A stretch of 64,000 bases of DNA from Escherichia phage vB_EcoM_CRJP21: sequence record OQ708376.1. The stretch is one strand, 5' to 3'. The notes beneath the pieces were generated by a model, which searched no databases, had not been told where the DNA came from, and worked only from the letters and a program-made list of their open reading frames with translations. This document shows, piece by piece, positions 14,251 to 43,627 of this stretch (positions within the stretch are counted from its first letter, which is position 1; every line of letters begins with the position of its first letter). The translations under genes and the position numbers were made by a program.

Positions 14251-14279
14251 TTGACATAGAAAAAGTAATTATGTATAAT
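14251..14279 (+). promoter_or_regulatory. sigma70-type early promoter
   Basis: TTGACA, 17-nt spacer, TATAAT. Confidence 0.7.
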
Positions 14280-14280
14280 T

Positions 14281-14311
14281 AGAGAACTTCATATGGAGTT
14301 CTCTTTTTTTA
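14281..14311 (+). terminator. intrinsic terminator hairpin immediately downstream of the promoter
   Basis: agagaact-8 nt loop-agttctct plus 7 T. Confidence 0.6.
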
Positions 14312-14323
14312 TAAGGTGATAAA

Positions 14324-14743
14324 ATGTTAAATGAACGTATTAAAAATGCACTACATGTATTGAATCAAGAAGTCAATTCTATTCATAAAAGTACTGACCG
14401 TTATAAAGTAATGCATGAAATCAAACAAGAATTGGAATCTATTAATAAGGGAGAGTGGTGGTATCTTCAGCCCGAATATCAAACTCGTGAATTAAACGAT
14501 GTTGAAAAAGAAATTGTCAAATTCATCACTACTCGTTATTGTGATACATCAGAGAATGATGTATCAGCGAACTTCAATCTTACTAAATTGGAAGTCGAAG
14601 AAAAATTCCATTTTGATTGGCTTGATTGGATTGAAATGGTAATGGAACTAGAAGAAAAATTCAATGTTGAAGTTGATGAAAAGTTCGAGAATAATGAAAC
14701 TAAGCTGTATGAACTAGTAGAACATATTCAAAAAATGTTGTAA
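14324..14743 (+). CDS. ACP-like protein lacking the phosphopantetheine-attachment serine
   Basis: C-terminal DWLDWIEMVMELEEKFNVEVDEKF resembles ACP helix II [16 protein letters not shown] with Trp in place of Ser. Confidence 0.4.
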   Translation: MLNERIKNALHVLNQEVNSIHKSTDRYKVMHEIKQELESINKGEWWYLQPEYQTRELNDVEKEIVKFITTRYCDTSENDVSANFNLTKLEVEEKFHFDWLDWIEMVMELEEKFNVEVDEKFENNETKLYELVEHIQKML

Positions 14744-22871: not shown

Positions 22872-23075
22872 ATGATTGAAATTAATGCTGATATCTATTG
22901 TAGTGCAGCACCAAATTACTTCATTTATGCACTAAGTACATTTGGTGAAACTGAAGGTGAAACTTTTGTTTTAGTAGAGAATACTACATGGTTCAAAACA
23001 AGTAATAAAATTCCGAAAGATGTTTTGGAAACATATGTTCGTATTGAAAATAAAAACATATATGTAATTTTATAG
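22872..23075 (+). CDS. hypothetical protein
   Basis: 67-aa ORF. Confidence 0.4.
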   Translation: MIEINADIYCSAAPNYFIYALSTFGETEGETFVLVENTTWFKTSNKIPKDVLETYVRIENKNIYVIL

Positions 23076-23082
23076 GTAAAAT

Positions 23083-23493
23083 ATGATTGAAATGGAAGGA
23101 ACTCTGGTGTATGATCCAGACCGTGGCACTATGAAAAAGAAGAAGGACTTCTGGTTAGTACTGCAACTTCCATTACAGTTGGTTAGATACTACCAGTATT
23201 TCATCAGAACTGATTTACATATTGACGTTAAAGATCCTCAATGGGGAGCACATGTTAGTATAGTGCGTGGTGAAGTACCACCACATGAAGAGTTCTGGAA
23301 AAAATACGATGGAATGAAAGTAAAGATAAAGTTCAATCCTTGTATTGAGATAGTAAAAGATAAAAAGAATCCAGGTTCATTCTTTATCATTGAATTTGAA
23401 GATGATTTCATCACACACATTAGAAACGAACTAGGACTACCAACCAAGTACTTTAAATATCACATAACTGTAGGTAGAACCTACTACGATTAA
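23083..23493 (+). CDS. 2H phosphoesterase-superfamily protein (LigT-like; possible Acb1-like cyclic-nucleotide phosphodiesterase)
   Basis: two H-x-[ST]-x motifs, AHVSIV and YHITVG, about 70 residues apart in a 136-aa protein. Confidence 0.4.
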   Translation: MIEMEGTLVYDPDRGTMKKKKDFWLVLQLPLQLVRYYQYFIRTDLHIDVKDPQWGAHVSIVRGEVPPHEEFWKKYDGMKVKIKFNPCIEIVKDKKNPGSFFIIEFEDDFITHIRNELGLPTKYFKYHITVGRTYYD

Positions 23494-23517
23494 TGTGGTT
23501 TTTACAGTAAATATGTC

Positions 23518-23545
23518 TTGTAATAAAATAAAAATATGCTATACT
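23518..23545 (+). promoter_or_regulatory. promoter candidate
   Basis: TTGTAA, 16-nt spacer, TG-c-TATACT. Confidence 0.4.
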
Positions 23546-23661
23546 ACTTAAACATTTGAAAAGAACGTTTTTGTACTGTAGAAAGTCCGATGAGGCTTTT
23601 GCAAATGGCCTCTTTGCCATCTTTGTGATTGCCCATCTTAACAATCAACAAAGGAGGCGTT

Positions 23662-24588
23662 TTGAAACAAGCGAAAAAAGCACTGAAAACTAAGACTACT
23701 TATGGTGTTCTAGTTTGCACAGTACTTGTCGCTGCGATTGGATTTTATGGTTTTTCTCAAAATGATCGTGTATCATCATCGGACGAAAGTCAGGTACACA
23801 ATTTAAAACCACAAGTTACGCAAATTCAAAAGCAGGAATTACCAAAGGTAGAAATATCAAAGGATGTTCCACGCGGCGAGAAGCATTATACGGTTCAACC
23901 TGGTGATAGTTATTATTCTATTGCTAAAAAGTTTAAACCTAAAAATGTACAACTTGAAGAGTATGTTATTTTGTTGAAAAATATCAATTTAAATGCTACT
24001 CTTCATACTTCTCAGGGTATCTTTATCCCAACAAAAGAGGATTTGAAGAACGTATTGTTACCAGATGTGACTGTACTGTTTGATTATAATGATCCAGAAA
24101 TTGTCAATCACATCAAAGAAGCTGAAGGTTCAATTGAATTTCAGTCCAAGAACAAACGCCGTTTACTTGGTGGGAAAGTCGGAGTTCCTTTCCACAATTC
24201 TAAATTTCATCCCTACAAGGACATGAAAGGTAATTATACAATAGGTTATGGGCATTATTTGGGTAGAAAAGAATCTGATGCGATTAAGTACAGAAACGGT
24301 ATTACCAAAGCTCAAGCCAATAAACTTTTAATGCAAGATATGAAAAGAACATATAATGACTTTTTATTATTGATGCAGAAAAAAGAAGCAGTAAATCTGA
24401 CCAAAGAACAACAACGTATTCTTTATGAAATGTCCTATACAATGGGTGTTGATAAATTAGCAACGTTTAATAAACTTTGGAAAAGTGTGAAAAATGATAA
24501 CCCTAAGAAATTTAAAAAAGAAATTATGAATTCCTTATGGTATCGTCAAGTTACAAACCGAGCAGATTTGTTGTTAAGTTCACTCTAA
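23662..24588 (+). CDS. membrane-anchored LysM + T4-lysozyme-like muramidase (endolysin candidate)
   Basis: TM segment, LysM block YTVQPGDSYYSIAKKF, lysozyme block GNYTIGYGHYLG; TTG at 23662 after AAGGAGG (alternative TTG 23629). Confidence 0.6.
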   Translation: MKQAKKALKTKTTYGVLVCTVLVAAIGFYGFSQNDRVSSSDESQVHNLKPQVTQIQKQELPKVEISKDVPRGEKHYTVQPGDSYYSIAKKFKPKNVQLEEYVILLKNINLNATLHTSQGIFIPTKEDLKNVLLPDVTVLFDYNDPEIVNHIKEAEGSIEFQSKNKRRLLGGKVGVPFHNSKFHPYKDMKGNYTIGYGHYLGRKESDAIKYRNGITKAQANKLLMQDMKRTYNDFLLLMQKKEAVNLTKEQQRILYEMSYTMGVDKLATFNKLWKSVKNDNPKKFKKEIMNSLWYRQVTNRADLLLSSL

Positions 24589-24604
24589 AAAAGGTAGGTA
24601 AATT

Positions 24605-24937
24605 ATGCTAAAATTAAATATTCAAGGTAATGTTGATTTTACTACAGCAATTCAAGATGCAATTTACGATGGTGCTAAATGTCTTGAAAAGTTCCGTACT
24701 TCAACTGTAATGGATATTGAAGTTCATGTGAAGAAAGAGCATAAGTCTCAATACTCTGTGACTATAACATCAGGTAGTAAATCAGTTACTGCCGATGCAG
24801 CAGATTTATACAAAGCAATTGGTGATTCATTTGAAAAAATGGAAACTGTATTCAGTAAAGACAAAAGCATTAAATTACACCGCCGAAACCATCCAGAACA
24901 CCCAGTTCTTAATGATTTGACAGAAAACGAAGAGTAA
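24605..24937 (+). CDS. hpf: ribosome hibernation promoting factor (HPF/RaiA family)
   Basis: MLKLNIQGNVDFTTAIQDAI ... ADLYKAIGDSFEKME ... KDKSIK aligns with E. coli HPF along its length. Confidence 0.65.
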   Translation: MLKLNIQGNVDFTTAIQDAIYDGAKCLEKFRTSTVMDIEVHVKKEHKSQYSVTITSGSKSVTADAADLYKAIGDSFEKMETVFSKDKSIKLHRRNHPEHPVLNDLTENEE

Positions 24938-24948
24938 TATATACTAAA

Positions 24949-24976
24949 GGGACAGATTAATTCTGTCCCTTTTCTT
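24949..24976 (+). terminator. intrinsic terminator
   Basis: gggacaga-ttaat-tctgtccc plus ttttctt. Confidence 0.7.
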
Positions 24977-24990
24977 ATGGAGTTTTAATT

Positions 24991-25386
24991 ATGAATTATT
25001 CCTGGATGGAAATTGTAAAATCTCTAATATCAACACATGATATGGACTTACCTGAACACCTAGTTATTAATAGATGGTACTATCCATATCCAGATAACCG
25101 TTGTGTTGGGATTGGATTTTTTATTAATGAAAAATCTCAATATATTGGATTAATTGAAGATTATACAAAAACCAACATTGCGTTCTCTATTGAGTTGAAT
25201 GTAGATCACATAAAATACTACACCAATAAAATGGACGAAGACGATGGTGATGTTATAATTCCAGCAGAAATAGACGAAGCTTCATTTTTTCAGTTATCAT
25301 TAATTCATGATGTATCTGATATTACTTATGATAATGTGAAAGACCTTTTTATATTGTACAATAAACTGTATAATTACTTTTTATAA
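24991..25386 (+). CDS. hypothetical protein
   Basis: 131-aa ORF. Confidence 0.5.
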   Translation: MNYSWMEIVKSLISTHDMDLPEHLVINRWYYPYPDNRCVGIGFFINEKSQYIGLIEDYTKTNIAFSIELNVDHIKYYTNKMDEDDGDVIIPAEIDEASFFQLSLIHDVSDITYDNVKDLFILYNKLYNYFL

Positions 25387-25399
25387 TGGAGATAAATTT

Positions 25400-25585
25400 A
25401 TGGAATATACAATATGTATAGTTATATGTATCATATCCTTACTAGTCGGGGTTGGTGTGATGATTTATTGTGATGCAGAACCCAGTACAGAAACAGGAAC
25501 AACTATTGAACTTAAGCCTGGTATTAAGGTAAATGATTCATATTGTTACGATCCACATAGTAATAAGTATGTGATTTGTATATGA
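25400..25585 (+). CDS. small membrane protein
   Basis: 61 aa with N-terminal hydrophobic segment. Confidence 0.4.
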   Translation: MEYTICIVICIISLLVGVGVMIYCDAEPSTETGTTIELKPGIKVNDSYCYDPHSNKYVICI

Positions 25586-25992
25586 AAAAGTTTGATATTA
25601 AACCTATGATTGATGCTATCGAAATTAAATTAAAAAATACTAAAAAGCCAGATAGTACAGGTTTGTTCTTTAGTTTAGATAAAATGTATTATGAAACACA
25701 CGTGTCAAGTTATGATAGAACAGGAAATCTCTTCATCCGTACATATAACTTATTTTATAGTGAAGATGTTTTTATGATAGATATAAATCTGGATGAAAGT
25801 ATAGTGTTGATGTATATTGAGGATGTTCAATCAACAGAACAACGAAACGGGACTCTTCCTATTGCTGCTACAGAGGAAGAGTTTATGCAATATCAGTTCA
25901 TTGAGGATACCTTTGGCATTGACTTTGATACATATCAGAGTATAATGAGGGTATACGAACTTTATGAGGATTATGTGATTGGACGTTACTAA
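25582..25992 (+). CDS. hypothetical protein, tandem paralog 1
   Basis: ATGA overlap; C-terminal FIEDTFGIDFDTYQ block shared with next ORF. Confidence 0.5.
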   Translation: MKKFDIKPMIDAIEIKLKNTKKPDSTGLFFSLDKMYYETHVSSYDRTGNLFIRTYNLFYSEDVFMIDINLDESIVLMYIEDVQSTEQRNGTLPIAATEEEFMQYQFIEDTFGIDFDTYQSIMRVYELYEDYVIGRY

Positions 25993-26401
25993 AATTCCAA
26001 AATTTAATGAAACGTTAAAGTACTTTGCTGAACATGAAATCAGTACTGAAAGACGTGGTTTAGTTACATATAATCAACATCGTGTAATGTACACTAATAA
26101 TTTTCAGGGTACTGTTCGTATTAAATTTCGTAATGCACTCGACGACAATGATGAATTGTTAATTTTACTAAGAAAAAGTAAGATTGAATTGACATACGCA
26201 ACTCACCATATTGAAAGTGAGTTGATGTGGCACACCCTATCAAAAAAAGAAGGGACATTACCAGTTGATGATAATGGACCAGAAACACTTGATCAGTACA
26301 TGTTCATTGATGATACATTTGGCATTGACTATTCTGCATATCAGTGTATACTAGCTATACACGAAAAATATTACGACCGTCTACGTGATAGATTAATTTA
26401 A
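25979..26401 (+). CDS. hypothetical protein, tandem paralog 2 (TTG start)
   Basis: TTG 9 nt after GAGGA; C-terminal FIDDTFGIDYSAYQ block. Confidence 0.45.
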   Translation: MDVTKIPKFNETLKYFAEHEISTERRGLVTYNQHRVMYTNNFQGTVRIKFRNALDDNDELLILLRKSKIELTYATHHIESELMWHTLSKKEGTLPVDDNGPETLDQYMFIDDTFGIDYSAYQCILAIHEKYYDRLRDRLI

Positions 26402-26412
26402 TTGGAGGCATT

Positions 26413-26535
26413 ATGATTGCTATGTTAGAAGAAGATTGGGGTGTTTCCGAGCAAGGCACTGATGAATATGAATACCCAGAATATAAGCCCAAAGGCTTCT
26501 GGGAACGTTTGCGTGATTGGTTGATGGGGGAATAA
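26413..26535 (+). CDS. 40-aa peptide (below track threshold)
   Basis: GGAGG RBS then ATG; fills the gap before the next gene. Confidence 0.3.
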   Translation: MIAMLEEDWGVSEQGTDEYEYPEYKPKGFWERLRDWLMGE

Positions 26536-26536
26536 T

Positions 26537-43506: not shown

Positions 43507-43534
43507 TTGACAAGATAGAATGATGTGATACAAT
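43507..43534 (+). promoter_or_regulatory. sigma70-type promoter, copy 1 of tandem pair
   Basis: TTGACA, 16 nt, TACAAT. Confidence 0.6.
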
Positions 43535-43599: not shown

Positions 43600-43627
43600 T
43601 TGACAAGTTGAAACGATGTGATATAAT
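43600..43627 (+). promoter_or_regulatory. sigma70-type promoter, copy 2 of tandem pair
   Basis: TTGACA, 16 nt, TATAAT; near-identical to the copy 93 bp upstream. Confidence 0.65.

What the first reader, a model, noticed from the sequence alone, without database searches (positions are those of the whole stretch)
24605..24937. Phage-encoded ribosome hibernation factor
Seen: the 110-aa product aligns along its length with bacterial HPF/RaiA and is followed by a strong terminator. Established: HPF binds the 30S subunit and silences ribosomes; phage-borne copies are uncommon. Inference: the phage may stabilise or reprogram host ribosomes, which would fit the neighbouring CCA-adding enzyme and possible Pth2-like gene.
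Basis: partly seen in the sequence, partly recalled or inferred. Interest (0 to 1): 0.55.

Follow-up and report, generated by a model that had tools for sequence, protein, structure and literature searches.

The report
Jumbo-phage RaiA-like ribosome hibernation factor homologue
This is a real, conserved copy of a bacterial ribosome-silencing protein (HPF/RaiA family) carried by a giant E. coli phage; public databases already annotate it and phage copies were reported in 2019, so what remains open is what it does during infection.

Summary
ORF 24605-24937 (+) encodes a 110-aa protein that passes the Pfam threshold for PF02482 (38.3 bits against 23.7). Its AlphaFold model has the beta-alpha-beta-beta-beta-alpha fold, and the best 35 PDB matches are all HPF/RaiA/pY. 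A conserved hairpin terminator follows the gene.

The window is an Asteriusvirus jumbo coliphage (99% identical to phAPEC6/121Q). RefSeq already calls this gene "HPF/RaiA family ribosome-associated protein". Phage HPF homologues were described by Mizuno et al. 2019, whose only experiment (phage rV5 HPF) found no ribosome association.

What this work adds:
- The protein belongs to an old phage lineage found only in 42 Enterobacterales jumbo phages of about 310-386 kb. It is about 25% identical to E. coli HPF and RaiA, has phage-like GC content, and dN/dS is 0.15.
- It has RaiA-like architecture: a short core plus a conserved tail with a basic segment and an acidic end, and no long-HPF dimerisation domain. 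It lacks three of the four basic helix-1 residues that are usual in bacteria.
- Gene order is conserved: lysozyme, HPF-like gene, terminator, paralogous ORFs, CCA enzyme, Nudix, macro domain, and an ORF with a Pth2-like fold.
- The tail codons Leu-Thr double as the -35 box of a conserved sigma-70-type promoter.

The most likely function is a RaiA-like binder of idle host 70S ribosomes. That is inferred, not shown. The finding is already known and of modest interest.

The parts
23662..24588 (+). Upstream gene of the same probable transcription unit: lysozyme with an N-terminal membrane anchor and a LysM domain (probable endolysin). Its stop codon lies 16 nt before the HPF-like start.
   Evidence: Pfam Phage_lysozyme 45.1 bits and LysM 22.4 bits. 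The start follows the 121Q annotation. It is not in the phAPEC6 virion proteome. Turkey3 annotates it as endolysin.
24592..24599 (+). Shine-Dalgarno-like motif AGGTAGGT, ending 5 nt before the ATG
   Evidence: Read directly from the sequence
24605..24937 (+). CDS of the 110-aa HPF/RaiA-family protein, stop codon included
   Evidence: ORF; PF02482 at 38.3 bits against 23.7; AlphaFold pLDDT 82 with a beta-alpha-beta-beta-beta-alpha fold; top 35 PDB matches are all HPF/YfiA/pY; dN/dS 0.15
24605..24865 (+). Core domain, residues 1-87 (b1 2-8, a1 14-30, b2 36-46, b3 49-56, b4 59-65, a2 68-84)
   Evidence: Secondary structure of the model; extent of the Pfam match; family signature residues G8, T13, A15, I16, D67, Y69, A71, I72 and K78 retained
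24866..24934 (+). C-terminal extension, residues 88-110: basic segment SIKLHRRNH (short helix 87-95), a linker, and the acidic end DLTENEE (disordered in the model)
   Evidence: L91, R94 and E110 are invariant and T106 nearly invariant across 13 sequences down to 28% identity. The tail after R94 is net acidic in all 16 phage sequences, as in E. coli RaiA. pLDDT is below 50 for residues 102-110.
24917..24945 (+). Sigma-70-type promoter-like element TTGACA-17 nt-TATACT overlapping the last codons. TTGACA is codons Leu105-Thr106, and the stop codon lies in the spacer. It probably drives the downstream genes.
   Evidence: 11 of 12 consensus matches. The pattern has 5 hits in the window, all on the + strand, against 0.6 expected. 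The same -35/17/-10 at the same offset from the stop is found in SP27, JNE01, Turkey3, Hallingskeid and Munch, with a CATAAT -10 in EJP2.
24946..24976 (+). Intrinsic terminator: hairpin 24946-24972 (G+C core GGGACAG/CUGUCCC) and U-tract UUUUCUU (24970-24976, its first three U lie in the stem). It ends the lysozyme/HPF-like transcription unit.
   Evidence: -17.8 kcal/mol, z = -3.7. A hairpin plus T-run occupies this place, with different stem sequences, in 8 lineages. Annotated as a terminator in G17 and Munch.

Best explanation
ORF 24605-24937 is a vertically inherited, functional HPF/RaiA-family gene of an Asteriusvirus jumbo coliphage. The protein has the short-form core that, in bacteria, sits in the 30S decoding channel (A/P-site region). 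It also has a conserved 23-residue C-terminal extension: a basic segment followed by an acidic end. That is the architecture of E. coli RaiA, not of tail-less short HPF or of long HPF with its dimerisation domain. The most likely mechanism is that the protein is made inside the infected cell (it is not a virion component), binds vacant host 70S ribosomes at the decoding centre, and holds them as protected monomers. This would compete with host HPF/RMF-driven 100S dimer formation and with nucleases or toxins that need access to that site. The ribosome pool would then stay intact and quickly reusable during the long jumbo-phage cycle or in starved hosts. Shown here: family membership, fold, tail conservation, purifying selection, conserved synteny, and the expression signals. 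Inferred only: ribosome binding, the RaiA-like outcome (70S rather than 100S), and the benefit to the phage.
For: Family membership and fold: PF02482 above threshold; model with the canonical fold; the 35 best PDB matches are all HPF/YfiA/pY, with TM up to 0.80 to E. coli and V. cholerae HPF; hhalign 97-98% to E. coli RaiA and HPF. No dimerisation domain: the protein is 110 aa and has only the PF02482 and sub-threshold Dodecin hits. RaiA-like tail: basic KLHRR followed by 9-16 net-acidic residues in all 16 phage sequences, against 17 residues (6 acidic, 1 basic) in RaiA. L91, R94 and E110 are invariant at about 30% overall identity. Phage A4 keeps an acidic tail even though its overlapping -35 box is degenerate. 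Function maintained: dN/dS 0.15 at dS 0.75 between the two Asteriusvirus alleles. The gene is present in 42 phage records, all 310-386 kb jumbo phages of Enterobacterales. Synteny is conserved in Munch and Hallingskeid. GC is 33.6%, matching the phage. Not a virion protein: phAPEC6 mass spectrometry does not list gp292. Established knowledge: RaiA and HPF bind the A/P-site region, the RaiA tail reaches into the RMF site, and hibernation factors shield 16S rRNA from YbeY and RNase R (PMC7913689). Mizuno et al. proposed that viral HPFs compete with host ones (PMC6375957). Neighbours fit translation and RNA maintenance: CCA enzyme, 2H-phosphoesterase-like ORF, Nudix, macro domain, Pth2-like fold.
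Against: There is no experiment on this protein. The one phage HPF tested (rV5, a different lineage about 43% identical to E. coli HPF) was expressed, but was absent from salt-washed 70S and 100S fractions and did not change 100S levels. Of 9 alignment columns that are K/R in at least 60% of 39 bacterial homologues, the Asteriusvirus type keeps 5. It loses three of the four in helix 1 (R17 to Q/N/H, K23 to E/G/D, K26 to C/S/A/V) and one after helix 2, so affinity or binding pose may differ. The protein scores below the NCBIfam cut-offs for TIGR00741 (30.7 against 40.9), HPF (19 against 125) and RaiA (15.5 against 158). The tail resembles RaiA's in architecture only, not in alignable sequence. 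Part of the tail's conservation (the Leu-Thr codons) may reflect the embedded promoter. The timing of expression is unknown.
Confidence: 0.5

Rival explanations
1. Exapted fold: the protein no longer binds the ribosome stably. It uses the HPF/dsRBD-like fold to bind another RNA or protein, such as tRNA or a phage transcript, or it acts as a decoy for a host sensor.
For: Three of four conserved basic helix-1 residues are lost and a conserved acidic beta-3 residue is replaced. The rV5 HPF did not associate with ribosomes. The gene sits among tRNA/RNA-repair-type genes. dsRBD proteins appear as weaker fold matches (ranks 36-50).
Against: The family signature residues, and the basic residues in and after helix 2 (K78, K85, K87, R94), are retained. 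All strong structural matches are ribosome-bound HPF/RaiA/pY. The Munch-type relatives keep R17 and K26, which argues for a shared ancestral ribosome-binding function.
Confidence: 0.2
2. Translation shut-off factor: the protein acts as a general inhibitor, as RaiA/pY does for initiation and aminoacyl-tRNA binding. It would silence host translation or end translation late in infection, not preserve ribosomes.
For: Occupying the A/P site blocks translation, which is the established behaviour of the family. The gene appears to be co-transcribed with the probable endolysin, only 16 nt downstream with no terminator between them, which would suit a late role.
Against: A site-blocking factor cannot tell host from phage mRNAs, and the phage needs ribosomes until lysis. 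HPF and RaiA bind vacant, not translating, ribosomes (established knowledge). In Munch a terminator and an extra ORF separate the lysozyme from the gene, so the link to the lysozyme is not conserved.
Confidence: 0.15
3. Decaying or dispensable passenger gene whose 3' end is kept only because it carries the promoter and terminator for the neighbouring genes.
For: The -35 box lies in the tail codons and is conserved across lineages. Four Salmonella SD-series phage records hold only truncated copies, and all keep the 3' end.
Against: dN/dS is 0.15 over the core, which lies far from the promoter. The reading frame is intact in about 38 records. The deletions mapped in three of the SD-series records (SD-1, SD-6, SD-15) coincide exactly with the hypervariable mosaic patches, here and 1 kb downstream. 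That pattern is typical of mapping or assembly drop-outs.
Confidence: 0.04
4. Dodecin-like small flavin-binding protein rather than an HPF homologue.
For: Pfam Dodecin at 21.6 bits, E 2.8e-4, just below its 22.5 cut-off, plus weak NCBIfam dodecin hits.
Against: The hit covers only residues 12-55 and is below threshold. PF02482 scores higher and covers the whole core. No dodecin appears among the structural matches.
Confidence: 0.01

Closest known systems
E. coli RaiA (YfiA, protein Y), the short HPF-family factor with a C-terminal extension
   Same: Same fold and family. Similar size (110 against 113 aa). Both have a core followed by a basic segment (RR) and a net-acidic C-terminal tail of similar length. 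Neither has a dimerisation domain.
   Different: Only about 24% identity. It scores 15.5 bits against the 158-bit RaiA equivalog cut-off. The tail sequence cannot be aligned beyond the RR segment. The helix-1 basic residues R17, R23 and K26 are absent. It is encoded by a phage, and tblastn with RaiA does not retrieve it.
E. coli and Vibrio short HPF (YhbH), the partner of RMF in 100S formation
   Same: These are the best structural superpositions (TMt 0.80 to 6h4n_x and 4hei_A) and the best profile score (hhalign 98.3%).
   Different: HPF is 95 aa and ends where the phage tail starts. The phage protein scores 19 bits against the 125-bit cut-off. A tail of the RaiA type is thought to clash with RMF, so promotion of 100S is not expected.
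Phage rV5 / Vequintavirinae HPF homologue (Mizuno et al. 2019, PMC6375957)
   Same: It is a phage-encoded PF02482 protein of about 105 aa in large virulent coliphages, and it has no known function.
   Different: It is a separate and more recent acquisition, 42-44% identical to E. coli HPF. Searches with the window protein do not retrieve it. Its genomes are about 137 kb. It was tested experimentally and was negative for ribosome association.
Cronobacter jumbo phage GAP32 S30EA protein (K4F6Q6 / AFC21633)
   Same: It is a 111-aa protein with an HPF fold in a 358-kb jumbo phage of Enterobacterales, and was listed by Mizuno et al..
   Different: Only 19% identity. It is detectable by fold (TM 0.72) but not by tblastn.
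Long HPF (Gram-positives, Thermus, plastid pY)
   Same: Homologous N-terminal domain; several of the best structural hits belong to this class.
   Different: The phage protein lacks the C-terminal dimerisation domain that makes long HPF sufficient for 100S formation (110 aa, no second domain).

Membership tests
HPF/RaiA family (Pfam PF02482, Ribosomal_S30AE) | Sequence score above the curated gathering threshold | tested here: met
   38.3 bits against 23.7, E 2.3e-9, profile positions 2-84 of 88. The precomputed PF02482 hit is also present on the relatives.
HPF/RaiA family (Pfam PF02482, Ribosomal_S30AE) | Beta-alpha-beta-beta-beta-alpha fold superposable on solved HPF/YfiA structures | tested here: met
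   AlphaFold pLDDT 82.4 with elements E2-8, H14-30, E36-46, E49-56, E59-65 and H68-84. Foldseek ranks 1-35 are all HPF/YfiA/pY, E down to 3.9e-7, TMt up to 0.80.
HPF/RaiA family (Pfam PF02482, Ribosomal_S30AE) | Signature residues: N-terminal I-x-G...T-x-A-I/L and helix-2 D-M/L-Y-x-A-I...K-L/M | tested here: met
   I6, G8, T13, A15, I16, V40, D67, Y69, A71, I72, K78 and M79 match the columns conserved in at least 60% of 39 bacterial homologues.
HPF/RaiA family (Pfam PF02482, Ribosomal_S30AE) | Conserved basic residues on helices 1 and 2 that face 16S rRNA | tested here: inconclusive
   5 of 9 mostly-basic columns are retained (29, 78, 85, 87, 94). Positions 17, 23, 26 and 89 are not basic in the Asteriusvirus type. 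The Munch type keeps 17 and 26. Which residues contact rRNA was not checked against coordinates.
HPF/RaiA family (Pfam PF02482, Ribosomal_S30AE) | Binds the 30S decoding channel and blocks tRNA and mRNA | not testable with these tools
   This needs co-sedimentation or cryo-EM. The only phage HPF tested (rV5) was negative under high salt.
NCBIfam TIGR00741 (yfiA equivalog, HPF/YfiA) | Score at or above the 40.9-bit cut-off | tested here: not met
   30.7 bits, E 3.4e-7: significant similarity, but below the equivalog cut-off.
RaiA proper (NCBIfam NF007654 / PRK10324) | Equivalog score at or above 158 bits | tested here: not met
   15.5 bits. It is not an orthologue of enterobacterial RaiA.
RaiA proper (NCBIfam NF007654 / PRK10324) | Short C-terminal extension beyond the HPF core, directed at the RMF site | tested here: inconclusive
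   An extension of similar length and charge pattern is present and conserved. It is not alignable to RaiA's tail beyond the RR segment, and where it would lie on the ribosome is unknown.
Short HPF (NCBIfam NF007780 / PRK10470) | Equivalog score at or above 125 bits; about 95 aa without a tail | tested here: not met
   19.1 bits, and 110 aa with a 23-residue tail.
Long HPF | C-terminal dimerisation domain | tested here: not met
   110 aa. Pfam finds only PF02482 and a sub-threshold Dodecin hit. The tail is a short helix followed by a disordered end.

The most novel reading that the evidence does not exclude
The protein is a dedicated phage counter-measure at the ribosome. In this reading it is a RaiA mimic with a remodelled helix-1 surface that binds idle host ribosomes weakly enough to be displaced for phage translation. 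It would still block RMF/HPF-driven 100S hibernation and shield the decoding centre and the 16S 3' end from host nucleases or abortive-infection toxins. It would work together with the neighbouring tRNA and peptidyl-tRNA maintenance genes (CCA enzyme, Pth2-like, 2H phosphoesterase-like) as a translation life-support module of the ~350-kb Enterobacterales jumbo phages that carry this gene.
Probability: 0.2. Interest if true: 0.6.

Novelty: already known. Interest (0 to 1): 0.3.

Why it matters
If it is functional at the ribosome, it would be the first demonstrated case of a virus using a hibernation-factor homologue to manage the host ribosome pool. That bears on how long-cycle jumbo phages replicate in starved or dormant bacteria, which matters for phage therapy against stationary-phase cells. 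It also bears on whether host ribosome hibernation works as an anti-phage state. As it stands, the gene's existence and family are already in RefSeq, UniProt and the literature, so the finding confirms an annotation rather than revealing something new. The useful additions are the RaiA-like tail, the altered basic surface, the conserved gene neighbourhood, and the promoter embedded in the tail codons.

Tried and rejected
- **Dodecin reading.** The Pfam hit is sub-threshold, and the fold search rejects it.
- **Poxvirus D5/OPG117 primase hits.** Weak matches in the PDB sequence search (E 0.007-0.04) are treated as chance. Nothing similar appears in the fold search.
- **Recent capture from the host.** Rejected: about 24% identity to E. 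coli HPF and RaiA, not retrieved by tblastn with either protein, and phage-like GC and GC3.
- **Diversifying selection as the cause of the 79%-identity patch inside the gene.** Rejected: dN/dS is 0.15 at dS 0.75, and similar patches occur in neighbouring genes. This is allelic replacement by recombination.
- **Gene decay in the Salmonella SD-series phages.** Probably an assembly artefact, because the deletions coincide with the variable patches.
- **RNA ligase near the gene, as in Munch and Hallingskeid.** tblastn of the Hallingskeid ligase found no homologue in this window.
- **tRNA genes.** None in the window.
- **The search for related loci on viral contigs.** It failed with the broad alignment because no conserved stretch was available.
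- **Word-indexed protein search.** It found only close relatives. The exhaustive profile search found just 45 representatives at E <= 1e-3. The best non-Asteriusvirus ones share the tail, and the one traced (P0013) has its nearest phage-database relatives in Munch-type jumbo phages.
- **P0012.** This 1605-aa 'hit' is a repeat artefact.
- **Literature.** Nine searches found no functional study of a jumbo-phage HPF or RaiA. A 2026 review of jumbo phages does not mention them.

Full report
**What is there**

Window 24605-24937 (+) is an intact ATG-to-TAA ORF of 110 aa. An AGGTAGGT ribosome-binding motif lies 5-12 nt upstream. The ORF starts 16 nt after the stop of a lysozyme gene that carries a membrane anchor and a LysM domain (Pfam Phage_lysozyme and LysM).

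The window itself is an Asteriusvirus jumbo coliphage. Region 23000-27700 is 99.2% identical to phAPEC6, 98.1% to 121Q and 94.2% to PBECO4, all genomes of about 350 kb.

**Is it an HPF/RaiA homologue?**

Yes, by every test that could be run.
- **Sequence.** Pfam PF02482 scores 38.3 bits against a gathering threshold of 23.7 (E 2.3e-9) and covers 84 of 88 profile positions. PHROG 8990 (S30EA) matches at 1.7e-5, and the protein's own PHROG 34864 has no annotation.
- **Solved structures by sequence.** phmmer against PDB sequences puts E. coli HPF first (E 4e-4).
- **Fold.** An AlphaFold model built on 11 family members has mean pLDDT 82 and the canonical beta-alpha-beta-beta-beta-alpha topology, plus a short extra helix (87-95) and a disordered end (102-110). 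Foldseek against the PDB returns HPF, YfiA/RaiA, protein Y or plastid pY at ranks 1-35, with E down to 3.9e-7 and TM up to 0.80 to E. coli and V. cholerae HPF.
- **Profile comparison.** The phage family aligns to E. coli HPF at 98.3% probability and to RaiA at 97.1%.
- **Where it falls short.** The stricter NCBIfam equivalog cut-offs are not reached: TIGR00741 at 30.7 against 40.9, HPF at 19 against 125, RaiA at 15.5 against 158. It is a family member but not an orthologue of either E. coli protein.
- **Weaker hits.** A sub-threshold Dodecin hit and weak poxvirus primase hits are not supported by the fold search.

**Anatomy**

The core (residues 1-87) keeps the family's signature residues: I6, G8, T13, A15, I16, V40, D67, Y69, A71, I72 and K78.

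Beyond the core there is a 23-residue extension, SIKLHRRNH-PEHPVLN-DLTENEE. It is as conserved as the core. L91, R94 and E110 are invariant and T106 nearly so across 13 sequences that fall to 28% identity. After R94, all 16 phage sequences have 9-16 residues that are net acidic (2-7 D/E, 0-2 K/R). E. coli RaiA has 17 such residues (6 D/E, 1 K/R), and E. coli HPF has none.

There is no second domain, so the protein is not a long HPF. The architecture is therefore that of RaiA, although the tails cannot be aligned past the RR segment.

One clear departure stands out. Nine alignment columns are K/R in at least 60% of 39 bacterial homologues. The Asteriusvirus type keeps five of them (29, 78, 85, 87, 94). 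It has lost three of the four in helix 1 (R17 to Q/N/H, K23 to E/G/D, K26 to C/S/A/V) and one after helix 2. The more distant Munch-type relatives keep R17 and K26.

**Regulatory signals**

It is an 11-bp stem at 24946-24972 followed by UUUUCUU, at -17.8 kcal/mol with z = -3.7.

Unexpectedly, an 11-of-12 match to the sigma-70 promoter consensus lies directly in front of it. TTGACA at 24917-24922 is followed by 17 nt and then TATACT at 24940-24945. The TTGACA is the pair of codons Leu105-Thr106 of the tail, and the stop codon lies in the spacer.

The same layout occurs at the same offset from the stop codon in SP27, JNE01, Turkey3, Hallingskeid (45% protein identity) and Munch (about 31-35%). 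In each case it is -35, 17 nt, -10, a hairpin with a different stem sequence, a T-run, GGAG and ATG. EJP2 has a CATAAT -10. The pattern TTGACA-N16-18-TAYAMT occurs 5 times in the window, always on the + strand, against 0.6 expected. The site at 14251 has the same promoter-then-hairpin design.

I infer that upstream transcripts (lysozyme plus the HPF-like gene) stop at the hairpin. Transcripts for the downstream genes would then start about 7 nt after the -10, inside the 5' arm, and so escape termination.

This dual coding could explain the invariant Leu-Thr. It does not explain the acidic residues. Phage A4 has a degenerate -35 (GTAACT) and still ends in DVTDEEE.

**Distribution and evolution**

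tblastn finds the family in 37-42 of 50,697 phage records. All are 310-386 kb jumbo phages of Enterobacterales:
- Asteriusvirus
- Salmonella phages Munch, 7t3, SE_PL and PHA46
- Klebsiella phage fENko-Kae01
- Erwinia phage Hallingskeid

An exhaustive profile search of 1.84 billion representatives finds only 45 at E <= 1e-3. The closest sequences outside Asteriusvirus share the tail. For those with long contigs on record, the contigs reach 78-351 kb. The one traced (P0013) has its nearest phage-database relatives in Munch-type jumbo phages.

E. coli HPF and RaiA used as queries do not retrieve the gene. Instead they retrieve about 130 records, mostly rV5-like phages whose copy is 42-44% identical to host HPF. 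That copy is a separate and younger acquisition. The GAP32 protein is related by fold only. The gene's GC (33.6%, GC3 21.6%) matches the phage (34.6%).

Within Asteriusvirus there are two alleles. A patch at about 24500-24860 is only 79-82% identical in SP27 and G17, while the flanks are about 100% identical. Between the alleles the core has dS 0.75 and dN/dS 0.15. This indicates recombinational replacement under purifying selection, not diversifying selection. Similar patches occur in the neighbouring genes.

Four Salmonella SD-series records hold apparently truncated copies. In the three I mapped, the deletions coincide exactly with these variable patches, here and 1 kb downstream. I read them as assembly drop-outs.

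**Neighbourhood**

Gene order is conserved in 121Q, Munch and Hallingskeid:
1. lysozyme
2. the HPF-like gene
3. terminator
4. two or three paralogous ORFs of about 135 aa with a C-terminal EEEFFQ.S..D...DY motif
5. a small ORF
6. CCA-adding tRNA nucleotidyltransferase
7. Nudix hydrolase
8. glutaredoxin or thioredoxin
9. further on, a macro domain

In the window the CCA enzyme is at 26537-27649 (PF01743 plus PF12627). ORF 23083-23493 has two HxS/T motifs and a near-threshold 2H-phosphoesterase hit.

Pfam PTH2 scores only 12.5 bits (E 0.18). However, a 63%-identical homologue carries a precomputed PF01981 hit. A moderate-confidence model (pLDDT 71) matches only Pth2 structures in its 12 best PDB hits (E 9e-6 to 2e-4, TM 0.5-0.67). 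There are no tRNA genes in the window.

**What is already known**

- RefSeq annotates the orthologues in 121Q (gp533) and PBECO4 (gp039) as 'HPF/RaiA family ribosome-associated protein'.
- Other records call it 'ribosome-associated inhibitor A', 'S30EA' or, misleadingly, 'putative sigma 54/sigma factor'.
- UniProt names the PBECO4 protein 'ribosomal subunit interface protein'.
- The Sharanji genome paper lists it among translation factors (PMC11895373).
- Mizuno et al. 2019 (PMC6375957) reported PF02482 proteins in GAP32 and rV5-like phages. They proposed that these might compete with host HPF to prevent ribosome dimers. They expressed the rV5 protein in E. coli, and it was absent from salt-washed 70S and 100S fractions and had no effect on 100S.
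- The phAPEC6 virion proteome (62 proteins) does not include gp292 or the adjacent lysozyme gp293 (PMC7247149).
- I found no functional study of a jumbo-phage copy.

**Most likely mechanism**

Established knowledge (PMC7913689):
- HPF and RaiA occupy the A/P-site region of the 30S subunit of vacant ribosomes.
- RaiA's short tail reaches into the RMF site, so RaiA yields protected 70S monomers rather than 100S.
- Hibernation factors shield 16S rRNA from YbeY and RNase R.

Given the fold, the conserved RaiA-like tail, the lack of a dimerisation domain, intracellular expression and purifying selection, the best-supported reading is a RaiA-like binder of idle host 70S ribosomes. It would preserve the ribosome pool and oppose host 100S hibernation during infection (confidence about 0.5).

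| Rival | Confidence |
|---|---|
| Exapted RNA or protein binder that no longer binds ribosomes; favoured by the lost helix-1 basic residues and the rV5 result | 0.2 |
| General translation shut-off factor co-expressed with the endolysin | 0.15 |
| Dispensable gene kept for its embedded promoter; contradicted by dN/dS | 0.04 |
| Dodecin-like protein | 0.01 |

Ribosome binding, the 70S-versus-100S outcome and the benefit to the phage are all inferred, not shown.

**Verdict**

The feature is already annotated and published as a kind, so novelty is 'already known' and interest is modest (0.3). The points worth carrying forward are the RaiA-like tail, the altered basic surface, the conserved translation and RNA-maintenance neighbourhood, and the promoter-terminator node that is partly encoded in the protein's last codons.

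Noticed in passing
window 24917-24990: There is a composite regulatory node. A sigma-70-type promoter (TTGACA-17-TATACT) has its -35 box formed by codons Leu105-Thr106 of the HPF-like tail. It is followed immediately by the terminator hairpin, then GGAG and the next ATG. The layout is conserved, with different hairpin stem sequences, in SP27, JNE01, Turkey3, Hallingskeid and Munch, with a CATAAT -10 in EJP2. The -35 is degenerate in phage A4. A start about 7 nt after the -10 would fall inside the hairpin's 5' arm, so promoter-initiated transcripts would escape the terminator (inference).
   Followed up: yes
window 14251-14327: The same promoter-then-terminator design occurs here: TTGACA-17-TATAAT, then hairpin AGAGAACT...AGTTCTCT, a run of seven T, a Shine-Dalgarno motif and an ATG. 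This suggests a recurrent transcription-unit boundary in this phage group.
   Followed up: partly
window 43507-43534 and 43600-43627: Two near-identical consensus promoters (TTGACAAG..GATGTGATAYAAT) lie 93 nt apart, in a stretch beginning about 43485 where I saw no obvious ORF (not checked). What they drive was not examined.
   Followed up: no
window 24991-25386, 25576-25992, 25979-26401: Three tandem paralogous ORFs of 131-140 aa share a C-terminal motif (EEFxQ.S/x.I.D...ID/Y..Y). Homologues follow the HPF-like gene in Munch and Hallingskeid too. Pfam finds nothing and the PHROGs matches (36582, 20693) have no known function.
   Followed up: partly
window 29807-30184: This 125-aa ORF is the likely 'Pth2-like' gene. 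Pfam PTH2 scores only 12.5 bits (E 0.18), but the AlphaFold model (pLDDT 71) matches only archaeal and human Pth2 structures in its top 12 PDB hits (E 9e-6, TM about 0.6). A 63%-identical homologue carries PF01981. Catalytic residues were not checked.
   Followed up: partly
window 23083-23493: This 136-aa ORF has two HxS/T motifs (HVS, HIT) and a Pfam 2H-SAK hit at 26.0 bits against a cut-off of 27. It is probably a 2H phosphoesterase (RNA end-healing or cyclic phosphodiesterase type). RefSeq annotates it as hypothetical.
   Followed up: partly
window 24500-24860, 25400-25580, 25520-26300: Sharp mosaic patches of 56-82% nucleotide identity are embedded in about 99-100% identical flanks among Asteriusvirus genomes, and different phages are affected in each patch. 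This indicates frequent allelic replacement by recombination.
   Followed up: partly
L014-L016 (Salmonella phages SD-6_S16, SD-15_S21, SD-1_S14) against window 24620-24814 and 25531-26342: These records lack exactly the hypervariable patches, which gives truncated HPF-like ORFs and removes the paralogous ORFs. The coincidence suggests mapping or assembly drop-outs rather than genuine deletions.
   Followed up: partly
window 27758-28159, 28161-28409, 28990-29466: A Nudix hydrolase, a glutaredoxin and a weak macro-domain ORF (16.4 bits, below threshold; annotated as macro or ADP-ribose-binding in 121Q and Munch) lie downstream of the CCA enzyme. Their order is conserved in distant relatives.
   Followed up: no
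protein P0012 (representative library): This 1605-aa 'protein' consists of about 29 copies of a 55-aa unit that weakly matches helix 2 of the profile. It is almost certainly an assembly or repeat artefact, not a relative.
   Followed up: no
GenBank records of orthologues (e.g. KM507819, ON286972, MH383160; rV5-like MT884008, OR062525): Some product names are misleading. 'Putative sigma 54' and 'putative sigma factor' are used for the HPF-like gene, and 'ATP-dependent protease La' is the product name under the HPF match in some rV5-like phage records.
   Followed up: no
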